From the UHGV virus genome UHGV-0247313: a stretch of 10,162 nucleotides of DNA. The stretch is one strand, 5' to 3'. The stretch is from a virus. The notes below the pieces were generated by a model that had not been told where the DNA came from, made no database searches, and saw nothing but the letters and a program-made list of their open reading frames with translations. A program made the translations under genes and the position numbers. Below are positions 1,797 to 10,162 of the stretch, one piece after another. The first letter of the stretch is position 1, and the number at the start of each line of letters is the position of its first letter.

Positions 1797-3563
1797 ATGA
1801 ACACCACACTGACACCCGCAGATCTCGATCCCCGTCGGCAGGCCATGCTGCTGTACTTTCAGGGATACCGCGTAGCCCGCATTGCTGAAATGCTGGGCGA
1901 GAAAGTTGCAACCGTTCACAGCTGGAAAAAACGCGACAAGTGGGGTGACTATGGGCCGCTGGATCAGATGCAGCTCACCACCGCCGCACGCTACTGCCAG
2001 CTCATTATGAAGGAGCACAAAGAAGGGAAAGATTTCAAAGAGATTGACCTGCTGGCGCGCCAGTCGGAGCGCCATGCGCGGATCGGCAAGTTTAACAATG
2101 GCGGCAACGAAGCCGACTTAAACCCTAACGTCGCCAACCGCAACAAAGGCCCGCGTCGTCAGCCGGAAAAGAACGTTTTCACCGATGAACAGATTGAGAA
2201 GCTGGAAGAAATCTTCCATTCCTCCATGTTCAACTACCAGCGCCACTGGTGGGAAGCCGGAAAAACCAACCGCATCCGCAACCTGCTGAAGTCACGCCAG
2301 ATCGGCGCGACCTTCTATTTTGCCCGTGAAGCCCTGATTGACGCCCTGCTAACCGGGCGTAACCAGATTTTCCTTTCCGCCAGCAAGGCACAGGCCCACG
2401 TCTTTAAGCAGTACATCATCGACTTCGCCAAAGAAGTGGAGGTGGAGCTGAAAGGCGATCCGATAGTGCTTCCTAACGGGGCCACGCTGTACTTCCTCGG
2501 CACCAATGCCCGCACGGCCCAGAGTTACCACGGCAACCTGTATCTGGATGAATATTTCTGGATACCGAAATTCCAAGAGCTGCGCAAAGTGGCTTCCGGT
2601 ATGGCTATTCACAAAAAATGGCGACAAACCTATTTTTCCACGCCATCCAGCCTGACACACAGTGCTTATCCGTTCTGGTCCGGTGCGCTGTTCAACCGTG
2701 GGCGCAACAAAGCCGACAAGGTGGACATCGACCTGTCCCACAGCAATCTGGCCCCCGGCCTGCTGTGCACAGACGGGCAATACCGCCAGATAGTCACCGT
2801 GGAAGATGCGGTGCGCGGCGGCTGTAACCTGTTCGACCTCGACCAGCTACGCATGGAGTACAGCCCGGACGAATACCAGAACCTGCTGATGTGCGAGTTC
2901 GTGGACGATCTCGCGTCCGTGTTCCCGCTCAGCGAGCTGCAAGCGTGCATGGTGGACAGTTGGGAAATCTGGACCGACTTTCATGCACTGGCCCTGCGCC
3001 CGTTTGGCTGGCGCGAAGTGTGGATCGGTTATGACCCGGCAAAAGGTACGCAGAACGGCGACAGTGCCGGATGCGTGGTGGTGGCACCGCCAGCCGTGCC
3101 GGGTGGTAAGTTCCGCATTCTTGAGCGTCACCAGTGGCGCGGGATGGACTTCCGCGCCCAGGCTGACGCCATCAAAAAACTGACCGAGCAGTACAACGTG
3201 ACCTACATCGGCATCGACTCGACAGGTGTCGGCCACGGGGTTTACGAGAACGTGAAAGCGTTTTTTCCAGCCGTCCGGGAGTTTGTCTACAACCCCAACG
3301 TTAAAAACGCCCTGGTACTCAAGGCCTACGACATTATCAGTCACCGTCGTCTGGAGTTTGACGCCGGACACACCGACATAGCGCAGTCATTTATGGCAAT
3401 CCGTCGCGCCACCACCGCCAGCGGCAACCGCCCAACCTATGAAGCCAGCCGCAGCGAAGAAGCCAGCCATGCCGATCTGGCCTGGGCAACAATGCACGCA
3501 CTGTTTAACGAACCGCTGCAGGGCGAGTCCGCCAATACCAGCAATATTGTGGAGATTTTTTGA
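1797..3563 (+). CDS. P: Terminase large (ATPase) subunit gpP-like
   Basis: 588 aa, the size and family of P2 gpP. Divergent from O. Its stop overlaps the portal start (TGATG). Confidence 0.9.
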   Translation: MNTTLTPADLDPRRQAMLLYFQGYRVARIAEMLGEKVATVHSWKKRDKWGDYGPLDQMQLTTAARYCQLIMKEHKEGKDFKEIDLLARQSERHARIGKFNNGGNEADLNPNVANRNKGPRRQPEKNVFTDEQIEKLEEIFHSSMFNYQRHWWEAGKTNRIRNLLKSRQIGATFYFAREALIDALLTGRNQIFLSASKAQAHVFKQYIIDFAKEVEVELKGDPIVLPNGATLYFLGTNARTAQSYHGNLYLDEYFWIPKFQELRKVASGMAIHKKWRQTYFSTPSSLTHSAYPFWSGALFNRGRNKADKVDIDLSHSNLAPGLLCTDGQYRQIVTVEDAVRGGCNLFDLDQLRMEYSPDEYQNLLMCEFVDDLASVFPLSELQACMVDSWEIWTDFHALALRPFGWREVWIGYDPAKGTQNGDSAGCVVVAPPAVPGGKFRILERHQWRGMDFRAQADAIKKLTEQYNVTYIGIDSTGVGHGVYENVKAFFPAVREFVYNPNVKNALVLKAYDIISHRRLEFDAGHTDIAQSFMAIRRATTASGNRPTYEASRSEEASHADLAWATMHALFNEPLQGESANTSNIVEIF

Positions 3564-3979
3564 TGGGAAAGAGTAAGAAAAACCGCGCTGCGGCGACGAA
3601 CCAGATCCAGCATAAAAACCAAACTTCAGCCGAAGCATTCAGCTTCGGTGATCCCGTTCCTGTTCTGGACCGCCGCGAATTACTGGACTATGTGGAATGC
3701 GTAAAGATGGACCGCTGGTATGAGCCACCCGTAAGTTTTGACGGACTGGCGCGAACATTCCGCGCCGCCGTACACCACAGTTCACCGATTGCAGTAAAGT
3801 GCAACATTCTGACCAGCACCTACATCCCTCACCCGCTGCTCAGCCAGCAGGCGTTTTCACGTTTTGTGCAGGACTATCTGGTTTTTGGTAACGCCTACCT
3901 GGAGAAACGCACGAACCGATTCGGTGAAGTTATCGCCCTTGAGCCTGCGCTGGCAAAATACACCCGACGCGGATTAGAC

Positions 3980-4030
3980 GAACAGCGTGGCGGACTCGTT
4001 GAGCAGGGCGGATGGGATGGCAGAAAGATA
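3980..4030. repeat. Inverted-repeat arm, exact reverse complement of 4161..4211 (51 bp)
   Basis: Base-by-base comparison. A further 9-bp pair is 3971..3979 ggattagac and 4151..4159 gtctaatcc. Confidence 0.95.
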
Positions 4031-4160
4031 GCCGGGCAGGCCGTAGATCTCCTGGTTGATGTCCGGTTCCATCAGATGAAAAATGCTGCCTTTCGTGAAC
4101 TGATACGGCTGCGTGGTCATGCCGTATTGCACAAACCAGTAGGTATCTAGGTCTAATCCC

Positions 4161-4211: not shown

Positions 4212-4657
4212 CGCCGAAAGTATTACATTAACGGTAGTCATGCAGGCTTCATCATGTACATGACCGATGCCGCGCAGAACCAGGAAGATGTGAACAACCT
4301 CCGCAATGCGATGAAAAGTGCCAAAGGCCCTGGCAACTTCCGCAACCTGTTTATGTACTCGCCTAATGGTAAAAAAGACGGACTTCAGATTATCCCGTTG
4401 TCAGAAGTCACAGCGAAGGATGAGTTTCTGAATATCAAGAACGTGAGCCGTGATGACATGATGGCGGCACACCGCGTGCCGCCGCAAATGATGGGAATTA
4501 TGCCTAATAATGTCGGGGGGTTTGGGGATGTGGAGAAGGCTAGCAAGGTATTCGTAAGAAACGAATTGATGCCCCTGCAGAAACGATTGCAGGAACTAAA
4601 TAACTGGTTGGACGAAGAAGTGCTCAATTTTTCAACCTATGAGCTTTAGTTTTAAAA

Positions 4658-4685
4658 CGAAGACCATTAGGTCTTCGCTTTATTT
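4658..4685. terminator. Bidirectional intrinsic terminator between convergent Q and the retron RT gene
   Basis: 8-bp stem cgaagacc/ggtcttcg with loop atta. T-rich tracts on both sides (ctttattt on plus; ttttaaa on minus). The RT stop codon sits in the loop. Confidence 0.6.
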
Positions 4686-5629
4686 AAAGGGTTCTTTCCA
4701 TATTTTTTTTCTAATTTGCTAATATAAGTTATTAATCTCCTATGGCTTTTTGAATCCACACTTAAAATAAATGACAACCATCCCCTAACGTGTTCTATCT
4801 CAGAAGACTTACCGCAAAATATATGATGTATCTTTGCTCTAATTTCTTTATATTTTTCTCTACCTATCCCAACTTTCTCTTGTGAAATAACTAAACCTGT
4901 AACTTTCCTCTGACTACGAGGCCCACTAATACAAGTTTTTTTTGAGTTAATAACCAATCCTTCACTTGGGATTATAGAAAATAAAAAATCACGTGCTTTA
5001 ACAACCTTTTTCATAGACTGTGCAGATAAGGTGAGATCATCGGCATATCTCGTATATATCAAGCCCCGACTACCTGCATAACCCTGAATACGATAATCAA
5101 GTTTAGAACATATTAGATTAGCTAATTTAGGTGATGATGGAGCACCTTGTGGTAGCAGATTTTTATAACAACATATTTTTGTCAAAACTGAAGATATTAG
5201 TCGATTATAACCAAGAGAATGGAACACTCCAAAAACTTTGTTAGCAGTTAAACTTGGGAAAAAATCCTCCAAATCAATATTCAGTATAAAGTTTGCCCCA
5301 ATATGCGGGGTAGCATTATTCAAAATAGATTGGTGCTTTTCAAATCCAATAGAAAAAGGAGATGACGACAGTTTATCTAAAATGTTACGTAGAACCCATC
5401 CTTGTAAGGCTTTAAGTTCTCGAGAAGGTTGGTAAATGGTTCTCATTCTCTTCTCTGGGCCTTTCTTTTCTACAGTGTAGATCCTATAGCGAAAATCAGC
5501 TGTATAGATTAACAACCGAAGTGTTTCAACAGATATGCGAGTCGCCTTAGACATGTCATGCAAATTGTTCATGACAGGTAGGCCGAGATTTCTCAATCTA
5601 AAAGTGTTCAAATATTCAGCGGATTTCAT
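4667..5629 (-). CDS. ret: Retron reverse transcriptase, Retron-Eco1 (Ec86)-type
   Basis: 320 aa with RT motifs: NIDLEDFFPS (motif A), LPQGAPSSPKLANL (motif B), YADD (motif C). Directly downstream of the msr-msd element. AT-rich unlike the flanking phage genes. Confidence 0.95.
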   Translation of the reverse strand: MKSAEYLNTFRLRNLGLPVMNNLHDMSKATRISVETLRLLIYTADFRYRIYTVEKKGPEKRMRTIYQPSRELKALQGWVLRNILDKLSSSPFSIGFEKHQSILNNATPHIGANFILNIDLEDFFPSLTANKVFGVFHSLGYNRLISSVLTKICCYKNLLPQGAPSSPKLANLICSKLDYRIQGYAGSRGLIYTRYADDLTLSAQSMKKVVKARDFLFSIIPSEGLVINSKKTCISGPRSQRKVTGLVISQEKVGIGREKYKEIRAKIHHIFCGKSSEIEHVRGWLSFILSVDSKSHRRLITYISKLEKKYGKNPLNKAKT

Positions 5630-5635
5630 GAAAGT

Positions 5636-5804
5636 TGCGCACCCTTACGTCAGAAAAAACGGGTTTCCTGGTTGGCTCGGAGAGCATCAGGCGATGCTCT
5701 CCGTTCCAACAAGGAAAACAGACAGTAACTCAGATTCAATGCAGGATGCCGAAACAACATCCAGAGGTTGACCTTAATGATAAACCTCTCGCTAAGGGTG
5801 CGCA
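5636..5804 (-). ncRNA. msr-msd: Retron msr-msd non-coding RNA (msDNA template), Ec86-type
   Basis: Flanked by 12-bp inverted repeats: tgcgcaccctta at 5636..5647 and taagggtgcgca at 5793..5804. Internal 10-bp perfect msd stem ggagagcatc/gatgctctcc at 5679..5702. Lies immediately upstream of the RT start. Matches the Ec86 msr-msd as I recall it. Confidence 0.85.
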
Positions 5805-6715
5805 TACGGAATCTTATCATAGTTAAATGTTGATTTTCTACGGTTTTCAAAATTCATAATCTCAAGCCGCAATCGGTCAAGTGTCTTTCTATCAAAGACG
5901 CTCCTAACATAGCTAGCCCCCAAAGCAGTGACCTGATAACCATCAGTCATTTGAAGTATTTTTCGTTCATTTATTAGACGAGAAACAACGGATCTAACAA
6001 TAATTTTAGATAAAACATCATCTTGCTTTATCGCTTTAAAAGCTAGTTCACACAGTGTGCGGTAGTTGACACTATCCAGTAAATAGATACAAGGCAATAG
6101 AAACCGCTCTGCGTATAATATATTTCCAATATCTTTTGATACTTTATTTTCTTTCCTAACCTTCTTAATAGATGCCATTAATTTTTTATATAATCGTAAT
6201 TTTCTGGCAACATCAATAGATGAATCACACATTTCTTTTAGTTCATTTGAACTACAACGCAAAACAGATTTTGAATTAAACTTACGCAACAGGCGAACAG
6301 GACCATAGTTAATAAAGCTACGTTTTGATTTAAATTTTGCATCTTGAATGCAAATCAACTTTCTCCTTAAGTTTTCATTATTAGAGAACGCACCAAGCTC
6401 TGTGAAAGACCCCGGACTTTCAGGAAATAAAATTATTACATCGACAGCTTCAGCCAGAATATTTTCTAAACTTAAAAGGCTATGCTGCCCTTGACCAGCC
6501 AAAAGATCATCAAATAGATCTTCTGGATAAAATATATCAACATCACTGAACTTTGCTAAAAATTGTGATAATTGATGACGCCAAGATTGATGATTAGCAA
6601 CGTCACCACCACATAGAAAAATGGTTATTTTAATATTAGCTCCTCGATAGAAGCCTTTCTTTGTGAGATGTCCTATAAGCTGTTGTTGCTGCTCATCGGT
6701 AAATTTTTTATTCAT
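5792..6715 (-). CDS. Retron effector: nucleoside deoxyribosyltransferase-like (NDT-like) N-terminal domain with a C-terminal putative DNA-binding domain
   Basis: 307 aa. N-terminal Rossmann-like motifs (ITIFLCGGD; VIILFPESPGSFTELGA). Upstream of and overlapping the msr a1 repeat. Same AT-rich composition as the RT gene. Confidence 0.8.
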   Translation of the reverse strand: MNKKFTDEQQQQLIGHLTKKGFYRGANIKITIFLCGGDVANHQSWRHQLSQFLAKFSDVDIFYPEDLFDDLLAGQGQHSLLSLENILAEAVDVIILFPESPGSFTELGAFSNNENLRRKLICIQDAKFKSKRSFINYGPVRLLRKFNSKSVLRCSSNELKEMCDSSIDVARKLRLYKKLMASIKKVRKENKVSKDIGNILYAERFLLPCIYLLDSVNYRTLCELAFKAIKQDDVLSKIIVRSVVSRLINERKILQMTDGYQVTALGASYVRSVFDRKTLDRLRLEIMNFENRRKSTFNYDKIPYAHP

Positions 6716-7187
6716 AATCTCCCCGCTTTTTTTTCTACTTTATACATCAAGTTATGAATAGATCCAATCTCCATACCACATGGCGCGCGCTCGTATCCCC
6801 GCCACGCCTGCCCGCTTTATGCAGTGGTTTTCATGCACATGCATAACATGAGCAAAAGCCCGCCAGTTCTGGCGGATCTGAGCAAAGACGATCCTCAATC
6901 GATCATGCGATTTCATGCAGCATAGTCATGCACTGTCAAGGAAGTGAAAATCCGTATCTGAATGGCCACTTGAAAAACGGATCATACGGGTTTACAAAGA
7001 TGAATGTTCGCTGTGAACGGGAAGCGGAAGTTAACTTTCAGATAACATAATCCATATGCACGAGAACCTCTAAAATAGAATGGGACACCTAAGCGGGGTA
7101 CTTACAACGATTCTTTCCATATTCACAGTTAACACTCTGTTTGGCGTATTTTTATTCAAATAGCAAACACCAATAAAAGGAGTTTCC

Positions 7188-7523
7188 ATGAACAATATTC
7201 CCCCTATACCACAGTTAGGAATTTATGTCTCAAAAATCGATCCCACCCTACGTATCACTGTAACCGATGTTGATATTGTTGATGGTGAGGATGATTCTCC
7301 TGATGATGAATTGTTTTATTTAGTCCACTGGATCGAGGGGGAAGATGAAAGTGATATGACAGCAATGGGATTTGAGCTAGACCCAGTAGAGTGGCAGGCT
7401 TTCGTTGAATCTGAGCAATTAGTGTTTGAGCGTGATCCGTACATGGATTCAATCCCCGAAAATTCAAACTTGGCAAAGATTCGGGATTTTCTCATGAAGA
7501 CTAAACAGAATGATCATTCGTAA
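7188..7523 (+). CDS. Hypothetical small, strongly acidic protein (111 aa)
   Basis: AAGGAG lies 7 nt upstream of the ATG. About 26 Asp+Glu against about 8 Lys+Arg by manual count. No family recognised. Confidence 0.6.
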   Translation: MNNIPPIPQLGIYVSKIDPTLRITVTDVDIVDGEDDSPDDELFYLVHWIEGEDESDMTAMGFELDPVEWQAFVESEQLVFERDPYMDSIPENSNLAKIRDFLMKTKQNDHS

Positions 7524-7715: not shown

Positions 7716-7949
7716 TTAATGCAGCCAGCTGTCGTCCTCCCACACCTTCTGCATAATTTTCATCACTTGTTTTCTTTCTTCATCCAGTTGCAGTCCGGTT
7801 AGTTCCACACCGTTAGAGCTACCTTTGCGAATGCGAATTACCGTTTTGGGATACAGGGGGCGCAGATTGCGGTAAAGCTCGGATTCAAGGGCGTCCAGGG
7901 TAGACTGGCTAATCTTCTGCTCTTTATCGATCATTATTTCAATGCGCAT
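7716..7949 (-). CDS. dinI: DinI-like protein (SOS-response family)
   Basis: Start chosen at the internal ATG 7949..7947, preceded by AGGTGA with a 5-nt spacer. MRIEIMIDKEQKISQSTLDALESELYRNL...QKVWEDDSWLH has DinI family length and pattern. The track ORF 7716..8021 is a spurious 5' extension. Confidence 0.8.
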   Translation of the reverse strand: MRIEIMIDKEQKISQSTLDALESELYRNLRPLYPKTVIRIRKGSSNGVELTGLQLDEERKQVMKIMQKVWEDDSWLH

Positions 7950-7959
7950 AAAAGTCACC

Positions 7960-8148
7960 TCAGCTGATGACATCCATTGAGCGGTTGTATTCGTGGCTTC
8001 TGATTTTTGCCATGAGTTCATCAGTCAATTCAGAAACCCACTGCAGAGCCAGCCCCTTCTCTTCATCACTACACTCACTAGCCGCTACAAGCTTAAGAAA
8101 AAAATCAATGCGCTGGAGCTTCAAAGACTCCAAAAAATAGTCCTGCAT
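7960..8148 (-). CDS. Hypothetical 62-aa protein, first gene of the LexA-box operon
   Basis: AGGAGG lies 4 nt upstream of the ATG. Its stop overlaps the dinI-like RBS, suggesting coupling. No family recognised. Confidence 0.5.
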   Translation of the reverse strand: MQDYFLESLKLQRIDFFLKLVAASECSDEEKGLALQWVSELTDELMAKIRSHEYNRSMDVIS

Positions 8149-8300: not shown

Positions 8301-9746
8301 TTAATACAGGTTCCGCCACTTATCATCTTCCTTCAGACGCTGGTTCCGATAGAAGATACGCAGGCCTGCTCCTGACGGAATACTGCCGCCGCGAAGGAGC
8401 AAATCGACTTCTTTCTCGCTGCCATCAAATCCCCTGGACTTCAGTTCATAGACGAGCTGCTGTCGCTGATGGTCTGTAATTCGCTGTTTGTAGTCTTTAC
8501 GCCGTTTCGGTTTCACCTGGCGTAACCTTGCAGCCAGTTCCCGGCGCTCTTTTTTGCTCATACTGTGCAGGTAATTGTGCAACTCCTTGTCATTCATACG
8601 GGTAATATCCGTTCTGGAGTCCCCATCAGCTGATTTGTCTTTCCCTTGTTGGTTCAAATTTTCAGCAAGGGGACAGTTATTGCCACGAGTCCAAGGGGCG
8701 CAAGCGCCCTGGTCGGCTGCCGCCTCCTGAACGTCAACGGCCTTACGAACCATTTTCCACTTCACCGCATGAGTGCAGATCTTGCCCTCTGCAATGGGTG
8801 ACCAGATGCCATAAATACGAATACCGTGATCGCCATATGCGGTCGGTTCTTCGTTGATTTCATAAGCAGTTCTGATGAGGTGATATTTGCGGGGAACCAG
8901 TACGCCGCCCTGCTTCATGATGTAGGTGGCAAAACAACCAGCATCAGCAGCAGCCAGGATTGCATCAAGACGCGGGTTATCCAGTACCGGCGCACCTGCT
9001 TTTTTGTCACCCTGTTGCCTTGCCGCCTGACCAGCCAGCAATCGCAGTTCACGGTAAGCCTGACGCCCCGGAATGCCAAAGAAGCGGAATTGCTGAACAC
9101 GATGCAGAGACGCCCAGGCATTAACGTATTCAGCGTTATCACGCAGGGATTTACCCGTTTCCTTGCTGATCTCCCCAGCCAGACCACGCCCGTCAATGTT
9201 CTTACTGATGTATTTCGCGATATAGCTTGTTGGCGTACCTTTGCGCGGGTTTATCAGCTCAGACTTAAAGCGTGGTCCCGTGTTATTGCCCAGCTCCTCG
9301 CGGTCTTCACGGATGGCAAACTTACGCAGTAATGCAGTGATGGCGCGGCGGTCTTTTTTACGCATGAAACACATGAGATGCCAGTGCACAGTACCGTCAT
9401 GATGCGGCTCAGCTACCGCACCTGCAGCAACACGCCCGATCTCTGCGGTTGCACTCATGACGTAATGTGGCAGTTTCTCTTTTGCCACCTCATTAATCGG
9501 TACGCATGGCAGGCAGTGAATCTGAGCCAGAAAACCATCTACCAGCGTTGAATCTTCAGTCAGATCGGTAAGCAGCCAGATTTCTGGTGCGGTTAATAAA
9601 TGAGGTTGCGCTGGGTTCAACTTGTTCCGCAGAATCTGCACATTCATGCCAGCACGTTCTGCCAGTTGCACCAGGTTGTGGCGCAATGCGAATGCACGAC
9701 AGGCTTCATCAAAATGTGGATGTTTGGAAACTTGGTAATCAAACAT
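8301..9746 (-). CDS. A: In-frame fusion: CII-like regulator N-terminus (about 110 aa) joined to a P2 gpA-like rolling-circle replication nickase C-terminal region
   Basis: N-terminus [25 protein letters not shown]...[29 protein letters not shown] matches the phage CII (186 CII/CP76-like) family. It then switches to [15 protein letters not shown] (HUH motif) and [12 protein letters not shown] (paired catalytic tyrosines). The HUH motif sits near residue 120 here; in P2 gpA as I recall it sits far further in. Start taken at ATG 9746, as in the plus-strand copy at 10087. Confidence 0.75.
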
Positions 9747-9805
9747 GGTCAATGCCTCTGATGTATTTCAGAATCGAACTAATTAAGGTTTAGATTGCAT
9801 TCTGA
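9671..9805. repeat. Left arm of a 135-bp perfect inverted repeat (partner 10028..10162)
   Basis: Exact reverse-complement match over the full length, limited by the window end. Holds the cII-like start, the intergenic region and the last 9 codons of the 73-aa ORF. Confidence 0.95.
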
Positions 9806-9832
9806 TCATCATTAAACGAGGAATGTTGCATC

Positions 9833-10054
9833 ATGAGACCTAACATTTCAATCACTCTTACCACCCCTCATGTGACTATTGAACGCTATAGCGAGCTGAC
9901 AGGGCTATCCATCGATACCATCAATGACATGTTGGCTGATGGACGCCTTATCCGTCACCGACTGCGCAAAGATAAAAAACGCGAAAAAGTGATGATCAAC
10001 ATAGCAGCAATGACCGTTGATGCGCTTTCAGAATGCAATCTAAACCTTAATTAG
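9833..10054 (+). CDS. Small helix-turn-helix DNA-binding regulator (Apl/Cox-like?)
   Basis: 73 aa with an HTH-like segment ([23 protein letters not shown]) and a basic tail. Sits directly upstream of the plus-strand cII-like start, as apl/cox precedes cII/B in 186/P2-type early operons. Confidence 0.45.
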
Positions 10055-10162
10055 TTCGATTCTGAAATACATCAGAGGCATTGACCATGTTTGATTACCA
10101 AGTTTCCAAACATCCACATTTTGATGAAGCCTGTCGTGCATTCGCATTGCGCCACAACCTGG
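10028..10162. repeat. Right arm of the 135-bp inverted repeat (partner 9671..9805)
   Basis: Reverse complement of 9671..9805. It may extend past the window end. Confidence 0.95.
10087..10162 (+). CDS. CII-like regulator, 5' end only (second, plus-strand copy; runs off the right edge)
   Basis: ATG at 10087 with AGAGG upstream. [25 protein letters not shown] is identical to the N-terminus of the minus-strand fusion gene. Confidence 0.65.

What the first reader, a model, noticed from the sequence alone, without database searches (positions are those of the whole stretch)
5636..5804. Effector stop codon lies inside the msr a1 repeat; effector is upstream of the ncRNA
The effector stop (5792..5794) falls within the 12-bp a1 repeat (5793..5804) that begins msr. 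The effector therefore sits upstream of the ncRNA, and its 3' coding end doubles as the retron RNA 5' boundary. This constrains where the ncRNA promoter can be: either the effector promoter reads through, or a promoter is embedded in the effector 3' coding sequence.
Basis: seen in the sequence. Interest (0 to 1): 0.5.

Follow-up and report, generated by a model that had tools for sequence, protein, structure and literature searches.

The report
Retron Ec86: effector stop overlaps msr
This is the well-studied E. coli B retron Ec86 (Retron-Eco1): the toxin gene does end inside the start of the retron RNA, with the last base of its stop codon being the guanosine that primes reverse transcription, which is a tidy detail of a known system and not a new one.

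Summary
Observation confirmed, with one refinement. On the minus strand, the 307-aa NDT effector (5792..6715) is followed directly by the ncRNA (5805..5636) and then the 320-aa RT (4667..5629). The a1/a2 repeat is a perfect 12-bp inverted repeat (5804..5793 with 5647..5636). The effector stop UAG is 5794..5792. U and A are the last two a1 bases. G5792 lies just outside a1 and is the priming guanosine of the UAGC motif.

The locus is 100% identical to BL21/E. coli B, and both proteins are identical to PDB Ec86 chains. The effector-ncRNA-RT order is published. The same effector/ncRNA overlap is published for Retron-Eco11.

a1/a2 pairing covaries strongly across 35 related loci. The exact Ec86 geometry recurs in 10 of 37 related loci; in most others the stop lies 1-38 nt before a1.

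On the promoter question, an extended -10-like motif TGaTAAGAT (5819..5811) lies inside effector codons 299-302, with 5 bases separating it from A5805. TGnTAnnnT is invariant in all 15 clade members although the amino acids vary. Synonymous resampling gives a joint P of about 1e-11 (post hoc). This favours an embedded ncRNA promoter, but no transcript 5' end was mapped here.

Novelty: already known. Interest: low.

The parts
5792..6715 (-). Effector gene: NDT-like N-glycosidase plus C-terminal winged-helix domain, 307 aa
   Evidence: ORF. PADLOC NDT_II-A 2.7e-94. Identical over 1-307 to PDB 7V9X_C 'Retron Ec86 putative ribosyltransferase/DNA-binding protein'.
5792..5794 (-). Effector stop codon UAG. 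U5794 and A5793 are the last two a1 bases. G5792 is the priming (branching) guanosine, G14 if the msr starts at A5805
   Evidence: Direct reading. G is unpaired immediately after a1 in the MFE fold. A18/G19 are invariant in 35 loci. Literature: priming G immediately after a1, UAGC motif required (PMC11754653).
5793..5804 (-). a1 repeat UGCGCACCCUUA. It also encodes the last base of Tyr304, then Ala305-His306-Pro307 and the first two stop bases
   Evidence: I2. Covariation.
5636..5647 (-). a2 repeat UAAGGGUGCGCA. Six bases (5635..5630) separate it from the RT ATG
   Evidence: (I2).
5724..5805 (-). msr (82-nt RNA part): a1, priming G and two msr stem-loops
   Evidence: The extent is recalled from the Ec86 literature (Lim & Maas 1989) and was not verified with a tool. 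The stem-loops are predicted and are conserved with covariation.
5649..5734 (-). msd template. The + strand of 5649..5734 is the 86-nt msDNA. It contains the long imperfect hairpin 5664-5688/5693-5717
   Evidence: Hairpin: (I1, 25 nt, 88% complementary). The exact 86-nt extent is recalled from the literature and was not tool-verified.
4667..5629 (-). Retron reverse transcriptase, 320 aa, with YADD motif
   Evidence: Pfam RVT_1 2.9e-25. PADLOC RT_II-A 7.1e-128. Identical to PDB 7V9U_A.
5811..5819 (-). Predicted extended -10 element TGaTAAGAT (hexamer TAAGAT 5816..5811) inside effector codons Y299-D300-K301-I302. Five bases (5810..5806) separate it from A5805
   Evidence: Direct reading. TGnTAnnnT is invariant in 15/15 clade members although the amino acids vary. 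Synonymous resampling gives a joint P of about 1e-11. A TAnnnT lies 0-12 nt upstream of a1 in 22/26 loci. This is a prediction only.
5835..5840 (-). Weak -35-like hexamer TAGAAA, 18 nt upstream of the -10 hexamer (codons R292-R293-K294)
   Evidence: Direct reading. It matches the consensus at 4 of 6 positions. It is conserved, but the amino acids are conserved too, so the support is weak.

Best explanation
The window carries Retron-Eco1 (Ec86), a type II-A3 retron sitting in the cos-proximal hotspot of a defective P2-like prophage of E. coli B.

How the system works comes from the literature and was not tested here. The RT primes from the 2'-OH of the guanosine just after a1, copies msd into an 86-nt msDNA, and RT plus msDNA hold the NDT/N-glycosidase effector inactive in filaments until phage Dcm methylation of the msDNA releases NAD+ hydrolysis.

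The operon is maximally compacted. The ncRNA fills the whole effector-RT gap and overlaps the effector 3' end by 14 nt. Bases 5805..5795 form the last 11 coding bases (...(t)AT GCG CAC CCT). UAG is the end of a1 plus the priming G.

The overlap arises because the conserved a1 end plus priming G (UUAG/UAAG, part of the required UAGC motif) is itself a stop codon in one frame. The effector reading frame simply runs on until the RNA motif terminates it. Homologues that stop a few codons earlier lack the ...AHP tail but keep the same a1, so the tail is a1 read in frame.

Inferred: the ncRNA-RT transcript has its own sigma-70 extended -10 promoter embedded in effector codons 299-302 (TGaTAAGAT, 5819..5811), starting at about A5805. 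On this reading the mature msr 5' end is a primary 5' end. Read-through from the effector promoter probably adds to it, since there is no room for a terminator.
For: Identity of the locus:
- 100% DNA identity to 48 E. coli B-lineage genomes.
- Effector and RT identical to PDB Ec86 chains.
- PADLOC RT_II-A and NDT_II-A hits.
- Effector-ncRNA-rrt order stated in 10.1101/2023.08.16.553469. Type II-A3 assignment in PMC7736814.

ncRNA:
- 12-bp perfect a1/a2.
- MFE -80.6 kcal/mol, z = -8.67, with a1/a2 closing the fold and G unpaired.
- 95% of cells paired, 11 of 12 pairs with compensatory changes, covariation score 0.896 against 0.243 in shuffles (0/500) and at most 0.26 when partners are slid.
- RNAalifold independently recovers the a1/a2 helix and two msr stems.

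Priming G and UAGC: PMC11754653.

Geometry across relatives:
- 10 of 37 loci share the exact arrangement. They come from Pectobacterium, Serratia, Vibrio, Bowmanella, Aeromonas and Advenella genomes and from gammaproteobacterial, Bacteroidales and Elusimicrobia MAGs.
- In 3 the stop overlaps the a1 5' end, in 1 a1 is fully coding, and in the rest the stop lies 1-38 nt upstream.
- L004, L007, L008, L012 and L014 stop before a1 and lack the AHP tail but keep the a1 sequence.

Promoter:
- TGnTAnnnT is invariant in 15/15 clade members. Its two T's are the only invariant positions among the 23 third-codon positions in that stretch.
- Joint probability given the amino acids and gene-specific codon usage is about 1e-11.4, or 1e-8.4 for 12 non-redundant sequences.
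- TAnnnT lies 0-12 nt upstream of a1 in 22/26 non-Bacteroidota loci, against 0-5 of 26 in most 6-nt windows 18-65 nt upstream of a1 (9 of 26 at 66-71). This includes non-coding gaps: L040 TAGAAT, L041 TATAAT, L043 TGcTAATGT, L054 TGtTAGATT.
Against: - No transcript 5' end was mapped here.
- The consensus promoter scan did not report the site. It scores 8 of 12 plus TG, below the tool's 9 of 12 threshold, and promoter-like sites are not enriched in the region (7 found against 9.4 expected).
- TGNTANNNT is not rare in a single sequence (13 in the window, 17.9 expected), so the case rests on cross-species conservation.
- The motif was noticed first and tested afterwards, so the test is post hoc.
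- Y299 and D300 lie in a C-terminal peptide reported to be needed for defence (PMC12746101). Part of the conservation is therefore at the protein level.
- The genes are AT-rich, with TAT, GAT and AGR codons favoured. The resampling accounts for this bias, but it assumes that synonymous sites are independent between loci.
- The a1/a2 alignment was anchored on the best inverted repeat in each locus, which inflates the percentage paired. It does not inflate the diversity of pair types.
Confidence: 0.9

Rival explanations
1. Single operon transcript only. The ncRNA and RT are made solely by read-through from the effector promoter upstream of 6715, and the msr 5' end at about 5805 is produced by RNA processing. 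On this reading the conserved TGnTAnnnT reflects protein or RNA constraints and is not a promoter.
For: There is no terminator and no space between the effector and the ncRNA. The literature calls it an operon cloned with 'its native promoter' as the unit effector-ncRNA-rrt. The promoter scan found nothing above threshold near a1. Y299 and D300 belong to a C-terminal peptide reported as functionally required.
Against: The two third-codon T's and the AGR arginine codons are invariant although residues change (Y/S/R, D/G/A/V, K/R/N), with a joint P of about 1e-8 to 1e-11 under codon-usage resampling. The same -10-like hexamer sits 5-9 nt before a1 in relatives where that position is non-coding (L039-L043, L054). 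The position would place +1 on the recalled msr 5' end.
Confidence: 0.25
2. The overlap is a regulatory device. A ribosome terminating at UAG must melt a1/a2 and occlude the priming G. On read-through mRNAs, effector (toxin) translation and ncRNA folding or priming (antitoxin production) would then be mutually exclusive, which would tune toxin:antitoxin stoichiometry.
For: The geometry is exact and recurs in 10 of 37 loci from distant phyla. a2 likewise abuts or overlaps the RT start (its end lies from about 45 nt upstream to 9 nt inside the RT start). A similar double overlap is reported for Retron-Eco11.
Against: Most relatives (22-23 of 37) place the stop 1-38 nt upstream of a1, and some drop the overlap by a single upstream stop with no other change (L004, L008, L014). 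The overlap is therefore dispensable for the family. If the ncRNA has its own promoter, most ncRNA molecules are never translated. There are no experimental data.
Confidence: 0.12
3. The a1/stop overlap is a chance juxtaposition in a compact element with no selective meaning. a1 happens to end in UA followed by G, and the frame happens to be open.
For: UUAG or UAAG at the a1 end is conserved for RNA reasons. About one frame in three would be terminated there, and 10 of 37 loci is close to one in three.
Against: This differs little from the best explanation, which also treats the overlap as a by-product of compaction. It does not account for the conserved nucleotide motif upstream of a1.
Confidence: 0.3

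Closest known systems
Retron-Eco1 (Ec86), type II-A3 retron of E. coli B/BL21
   Same: It is the same element. DNA is 100% identical. The effector and RT are identical to PDB 7V9X, 7XJG, 8QBK-M and 9JM0 chains. The order is effector-ncRNA-RT. The priming G follows a1 immediately within UAGC.
   Different: Nothing in the retron itself differs. The window's flanks carry two fold-back junctions that are absent from all complete E. coli genomes.
Retron-Eco11 (type III-A3, PRTase effector; PMC12746101)
   Same: The effector is upstream, and the ncRNA gene overlaps the effector 3' end and the RT 5' end on the same strand. The effector stop codon lies inside the IRa1/IRa2 pairing. It has a conserved C-terminal peptide. 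Type III-A3 RTs fall in clade 9, like type II-A3.
   Different: The effector family differs (PRTase, not NDT). The inverted repeat is 25 bp, with the stop's two A's bulged in mid-stem. The branching G is at rG28, not the last base of the stop codon.
Retron-Sen2 (St85), Eco3 (Ec73) and Vch2 (type II-A1)
   Same: They have a homologous NDT plus DNA-binding effector and a retron RT. RefSeq names the Ec86 genes 'retron St85 family'.
   Different: In this study's distant effector homologues L061-L080 the effector abuts or overlaps the RT, with no gap for an ncRNA. That fits the published msr-msd/effector/RT order of the St85 type, but the ncRNA position in those loci was not examined here.

Membership tests
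Retron (general) | Retron-clade reverse transcriptase with a YADD catalytic motif | tested here: met
   PADLOC RT_II-A 7.1e-128. Pfam RVT_1. RYADDL is read in the translation. The protein is identical to the PDB Ec86 RT.
Retron (general) | Adjacent ncRNA bounded by a1/a2 inverted repeats, with an unpaired conserved G immediately 3' of a1 | tested here: met
   12-bp perfect inverted repeat. Fold with z = -8.67. Covariation in 11 of 12 pairs across 35 loci, with A18/G19 invariant.
Retron (general) | Production of branched msDNA with a 2'-5' linkage at the priming G | not testable with these tools
   Established experimentally for this exact sequence in the literature (Lim & Maas 1989, cited; PMC11754653).
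Type II-A3 retron (Mestre et al. 2020) | [quoted passage not shown] | tested here: met
   PADLOC NDT_II-A 2.7e-94 covering residues 8-293. Identical to 7V9X_C. Pfam-A gave no hit in the local scan, although homologues carry a precomputed PF28093.
Type II-A3 retron (Mestre et al. 2020) | Gene order effector, then ncRNA, then RT ('Nuc_deoxy+Retron') | tested here: met
   Coordinates. The same order, with a 100-340 nt gap, is found in L002-L059. Literature support.
Rfam RNA families | Match to a curated covariance model for a retron ncRNA | tested here: not met
   No family reached its gathering score. Only chance-level miRNA and leader hits appeared at E up to 10. This reflects the content of the library and does not count against a retron ncRNA.
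Sigma-70 extended -10 promoter (for the predicted internal promoter) | TGnTAnnnT with a purine +1 about 6-8 nt downstream, and a mapped primary 5' end | tested here: inconclusive
   The motif is present and conserved at synonymous sites. It was not reported by the consensus scan, and no 5'-end data are available.

The most novel reading that the evidence does not exclude
In the II-A3 retron clade, the last codons of the effector gene would carry three overlapping codes: the C-terminal peptide, a conserved extended -10 promoter that starts the ncRNA-RT transcript exactly at a1, and the a1 stem plus priming G (UAG serving as the stop). Two transcript classes would follow: effector-containing read-through mRNA, on which terminating ribosomes block a1/G14, and promoter-internal ncRNA-RT transcripts. 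The toxin:antitoxin ratio would then be set by promoter choice and translation-folding competition. Published C-terminal-peptide deletion phenotypes, if made in the native operon, would be confounded by loss of this promoter and of a1.
Probability: 0.2. Interest if true: 0.45.

Novelty: already known. Interest (0 to 1): 0.2.

Why it matters

Three practical points follow.

1. Anyone mutating or tagging the Ec86 effector C-terminus in its native context also edits a1, the UAGC priming motif and a probable ncRNA promoter. Phenotypes attributed to the C-terminal peptide therefore need recoded controls.

2. Annotation pipelines can locate II-A3 ncRNAs from the effector stop, because a1 lies within about 0-40 nt of it.

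3. If the embedded promoter is real, the antitoxin module (ncRNA plus RT) is transcribed independently of the toxin gene. That bears on how retron toxin-antitoxin balance is maintained.

Tried and rejected
- Rfam at gathering thresholds and at E up to 10 gave no retron family, only chance miRNA and leader hits.
- The consensus promoter/terminator scan found no site near a1 and no enrichment, so the promoter case had to be made comparatively.
- A single-sequence count of TGNTANNNT was uninformative (13 found against 17.9 expected).
- My first stop-codon calls, made by extending tblastn HSPs, were wrong for five loci because the HSPs ran through in-frame stops (L004, L014, L040, L041, L054). They were recomputed. 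This removed L040 and L041 (a1 ending on the UAA stop) and L014 (a1 inside the CDS) from the overlap classes noted.
- Bacteroidota-type loci were not assessed for promoters because their consensus differs. A TAAATTTG-like element about 37 nt upstream of a1 was seen but not pursued.
- Literature searches for the msr sequence string, for 'internal promoter' in retrons, and for BL21 TSS maps gave nothing usable. Carabias 2024 and Wang 2022 are not held.
- I considered that a1 conservation might be driven by the protein tail (AHP). I rejected this because homologues that stop before a1 keep the a1 sequence untranslated.

Full report
WHAT IS THERE

On the minus strand the window encodes three elements in order:
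- a 307-aa ORF at 5792..6715;
- a 162-nt gap;
- a 320-aa ORF at 4667..5629.

The 320-aa protein is a retron reverse transcriptase. It hits Pfam RVT_1 at 2.9e-25 and PADLOC RT_II-A at 7.1e-128, and the RYADDL motif is visible in the translation. The 307-aa protein hits the PADLOC NDT_II-A effector model at 2.7e-94.

Both proteins are identical, end to end, to the chains of the solved Retron Ec86 structures 7V9U/7V9X/7XJG/8QBK-M/9JM0. The DNA of 4600-6800 is 100% identical to 48 complete genomes of the E. coli B lineage, including BL21, REL606 and C41/C43. RefSeq annotates the two genes there as 'retron St85 family' effector and RT, and annotates no ncRNA.

The flanks are a defective P2-like prophage:
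- capsid scaffold GPO, terminase and portal on one side;
- a DinI-like gene and a truncated CII/GPA fusion on the other.

[quoted passage not shown] The object is therefore Retron-Eco1 (Ec86), type II-A3 in the Mestre classification (PMC7736814).

CHECKING THE OBSERVATION

The only long perfect inverted repeat in 5560-5900 is 5636-5647 with 5793-5804, 12 nt and 100% complementary. In 2000 shuffles of that region, 3 reached 12 nt.

Read on the minus strand, the effector ends ...ccg tat gcg cac cct TAG. The features then fall as follows:
- a1 = UGCGCACCCUUA = 5804..5793;
- stop = U5794, A5793, G5792.

Two stop bases are therefore the last two a1 bases. The third, G5792, is the first unpaired base after a1 in the minimum-free-energy fold (-80.6 kcal/mol, z = -8.67, 0 of 200 shuffles as stable). 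That fold also gives the two msr stem-loops and the long msd hairpin, closed by a1/a2.

[quoted passage not shown] The effector's UAG is thus the first three bases of that UAGC motif. Its G is the 2'-OH priming nucleotide, G14 if the msr starts at A5805. The A5805 start and the 82-nt msr and 86-nt msd extents are my recollection of the Ec86 literature and were not verified with a tool.

The one correction is that the stop is two-thirds inside a1 and one-third the branching G.

COVARIATION

I collected 80 genomic loci encoding effector homologues, one genome per species. They fall into two layouts:
- effector, a 100-340 nt gap, then RT (L002-L059), as in Ec86;
- effector abutting or overlapping the RT (L061-L080), as expected for the St85/Sen2 order, where the ncRNA precedes the effector.

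In the first group, the best inverted repeat with one arm near the effector stop and the other near the RT start almost always ends ...UUA|G or ...UAA|G on the 5' side and begins |UAA or |UUA on the 3' side.

On an ungapped alignment of 35 distinct loci anchored on that G, the 12 a1/a2 pairs gave these results:
- 95% of cells are standard pairs;
- 11 of 12 pairs show double compensatory changes;
- the covariation score is 0.896, against 0.243 +/- 0.022 in shuffles (0 of 500) and at most 0.26 when partners are slid by 1-3 columns.

The stems range from UGCGCACCCUUA to AGAGAGCCGUGCCAAUUUA and GGUGCCGACCUUA.

One caveat applies: the loci were anchored on their best inverted repeat. That inflates the percentage paired but not the variety of pair types. 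An independent MAFFT/RNAalifold run on 14 full-length ncRNAs recovers the same closing helix and both msr stems with compensatory changes.

HOW GENERAL IS THE OVERLAP

After correcting five stop calls that tblastn had run through, and adding L005 and L008 by eye, the 37 loci divide as follows:
- 10 have exactly the Ec86 geometry, with UA closing a1 and the G of UAG following. These are the window; genomes of Pectobacterium, Serratia, Vibrio, Bowmanella, Aeromonas and Advenella; and gammaproteobacterial, Bacteroidales and Elusimicrobia MAGs.
- 3 have a stop overlapping the 5' end of a1.
- 1 has a1 and the G inside the coding sequence.
- 23 stop 1-38 nt before a1.

The effector always ends at or just before the ncRNA, but the exact overlap is optional.

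Close relatives that acquired a stop a few codons earlier (L004, L007, L008, L012, L014) keep the same a1 sequence untranslated and lose the ...AHP tail. The 'AHP' in the protein consensus is therefore best read as a1 (GCG CAC CCU) translated in frame. The overlap is best explained as compaction: the conserved UUAG of the RNA acts as the first available in-frame stop. About one frame in three would do this, which is close to the observed 10 of 37.

THE PROMOTER QUESTION

There is no room for a terminator or a free-standing promoter between effector and msr. The consensus scan reports nothing near a1, and promoter-like sites are not enriched.

Reading the sequence gives the following:
- Effector codons Y299-D300-K301-I302 are taT Gat AAG ATt. 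This is TGaTAAGAT, an extended -10 motif (TGnTAnnnT) at 5819..5811.
- Its last T is separated from A5805 by 5 bases.
- A weak -35-like TAGAAA lies 18 nt upstream, at 5840..5835.

In one sequence this means little. TGNTANNNT occurs 13 times in the window against 17.9 expected.

Across the 15 members of the Ec86-like clade, however, TGnTAnnnT is invariant in the same register, while the residues vary (YDKI, YGRI, YAKL, YDRV, SVRI, RDRM, SANF). Its two T's are the only invariant positions among the 23 third-codon positions in that stretch.

I resampled synonymous codons with each gene's own usage. These genes are about 34% GC and favour TAT, GAT and AGR codons. Per-locus retention probabilities came out at 0.07-0.63. 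The joint probability is about 10^-11.4, or 10^-8.4 for 12 non-redundant loci.

In more distant relatives whose stop precedes a1, a -10-like hexamer sits 5-9 nt before a1 in non-coding DNA: TAGAAT in L040, TATAAT in L041, TGcTAATGT in L043, TGtTAGATT in L054. Overall, 22 of 26 non-Bacteroidota loci have a TAnnnT 0-12 nt upstream of a1, against 0-5 of 26 in most 6-nt windows 18-65 nt upstream of a1 (9 of 26 at 66-71).

I conclude that a dedicated ncRNA promoter immediately upstream of a1 is probably a family feature, and that in Ec86 it is embedded in the effector's last codons. This is an inference. The test was post hoc, and Y299 and D300 are also part of a C-terminal peptide reported to be needed for defence (PMC12746101). 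Read-through from the effector promoter is not excluded and probably also occurs.

COMPARISON WITH WHAT IS KNOWN

The following are published:
- the system, its gene order ('effector-ncRNA-rrt') and its type (II-A3);
- its structures;
- its mechanism: msDNA-caged N-glycosidase filaments, NAD+ hydrolysis, and activation by phage Dcm methylation.

I found no paper in the searchable library that states explicitly that the Ec86 effector stop overlaps a1 and the priming G. [quoted passage not shown] The finding is thus a correct reading of a known element, and of a known kind of overlap.

What this analysis adds is modest:
- the stop's G is the priming G;
- the AHP tail is a1 read in frame;
- an extended -10 motif is conserved at synonymous sites.

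One caution follows. C-terminal truncations or tags made in the native operon would also remove the putative promoter and a1. I could not check how the published deletion was built, because Wang 2022 and Carabias 2024 are not held.

VERDICT

- Observation: confirmed.
- Interpretation: supported.
- Novelty: already known.
- Interest: low (0.2).

The most useful follow-up is cheap. Re-map the existing E. coli B dRNA-seq data (GSE255091) to a B-strain genome and look for a primary 5' end at NC_012971.2:878799 (+).

Noticed in passing
window 3980..4159 (junctions 3979/3980 and 4159/4160): This 180-bp segment is the reverse complement of the BL21 portal-gene sequence, with 52 bp and 9 bp duplicated in inverted orientation. 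It splits the portal gene into ORFs 3560..4150 and 4254..4649 and puts the same peptide (QRGGLVEQGGWDGRKI) on both strands. None of 5,426 complete E. coli genomes covers the junction, so it is probably an assembly fold-back artefact in the source contig.
   Followed up: yes
window 9805..10162: After position 9805 the window folds back: 9805..10162 is the reverse complement of BL21 sequence lying 223 bp further on (L001 9429..9072). No complete E. coli genome has this junction, so it is a second probable chimeric or fold-back assembly artefact.
   Followed up: yes
window 5555..5629 (RT 5' end): RefSeq/PGAP annotates the RT in BL21(DE3) as 295 aa, starting 25 codons downstream (M26). The 320-aa form starting at ATG 5629 is the one in the PDB entries. 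No clear Shine-Dalgarno sequence precedes either start. The nearest purine-rich run (AAGGG) lies inside a2 and would be sequestered by a1/a2 pairing.
   Followed up: partly
window 5795..5821 (effector residues 299-307): The C-terminal peptide Y299-P307, cited as required for defence and as contacting msrRNA/msdDNA, is encoded by the predicted -10 element plus a1. Deletions or tags made in the native operon would also damage the ncRNA and its putative promoter. Homologues that stop before a1 lack the last 3-6 residues.
   Followed up: partly
window ~6785..6803 and 6859..6876: A P2/186-type cos-like sequence (ggcgtggcggggatacgag on the minus strand) and a terminator-like hairpin lie upstream of the effector gene. 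This fits the published insertion of Ec86 next to the prophage cos site. No convincing sigma-70 promoter for the effector was found by the scan in 6716..6780.
   Followed up: partly
window 8301..9752 (-): A 483-aa ORF fuses an N-terminal phage CII (CP76) domain to the C-terminal part of replication protein GPA. RefSeq marks both parts as incomplete pseudogenes in BL21, which points to an internal deletion and a defective P2-like prophage.
   Followed up: partly
window 7188..7523 (+): A 111-aa acidic ORF next to the retron has no Pfam or PADLOC hit and is annotated as a hypothetical protein in BL21. It lies in the same prophage hotspot, between the retron and a DinI-like gene (7716..8021).
   Followed up: no
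loci L061-L080: More distant effector homologues, matching only the N-terminal NDT domain, abut or overlap their RT gene with no gap for an ncRNA. This presumably reflects the St85/Sen2 order, with the ncRNA upstream of the effector. The ncRNA was not searched for in these loci.
   Followed up: no
loci L025, L030-L035, L037, L038 (a1 type AGTTCTTTTTA, mostly Bacteroidota): These loci share a different, AU-rich a1 (AAGUUCUUUUUA|G) that starts 1-5 nt after the effector stop. They also carry a TAAATTTG-like element (Bacteroidetes -7 consensus TAnnTTTG) inside the conserved LEILNLK codons, about 37 nt upstream of a1. Its relation to ncRNA transcription is unknown.
   Followed up: no
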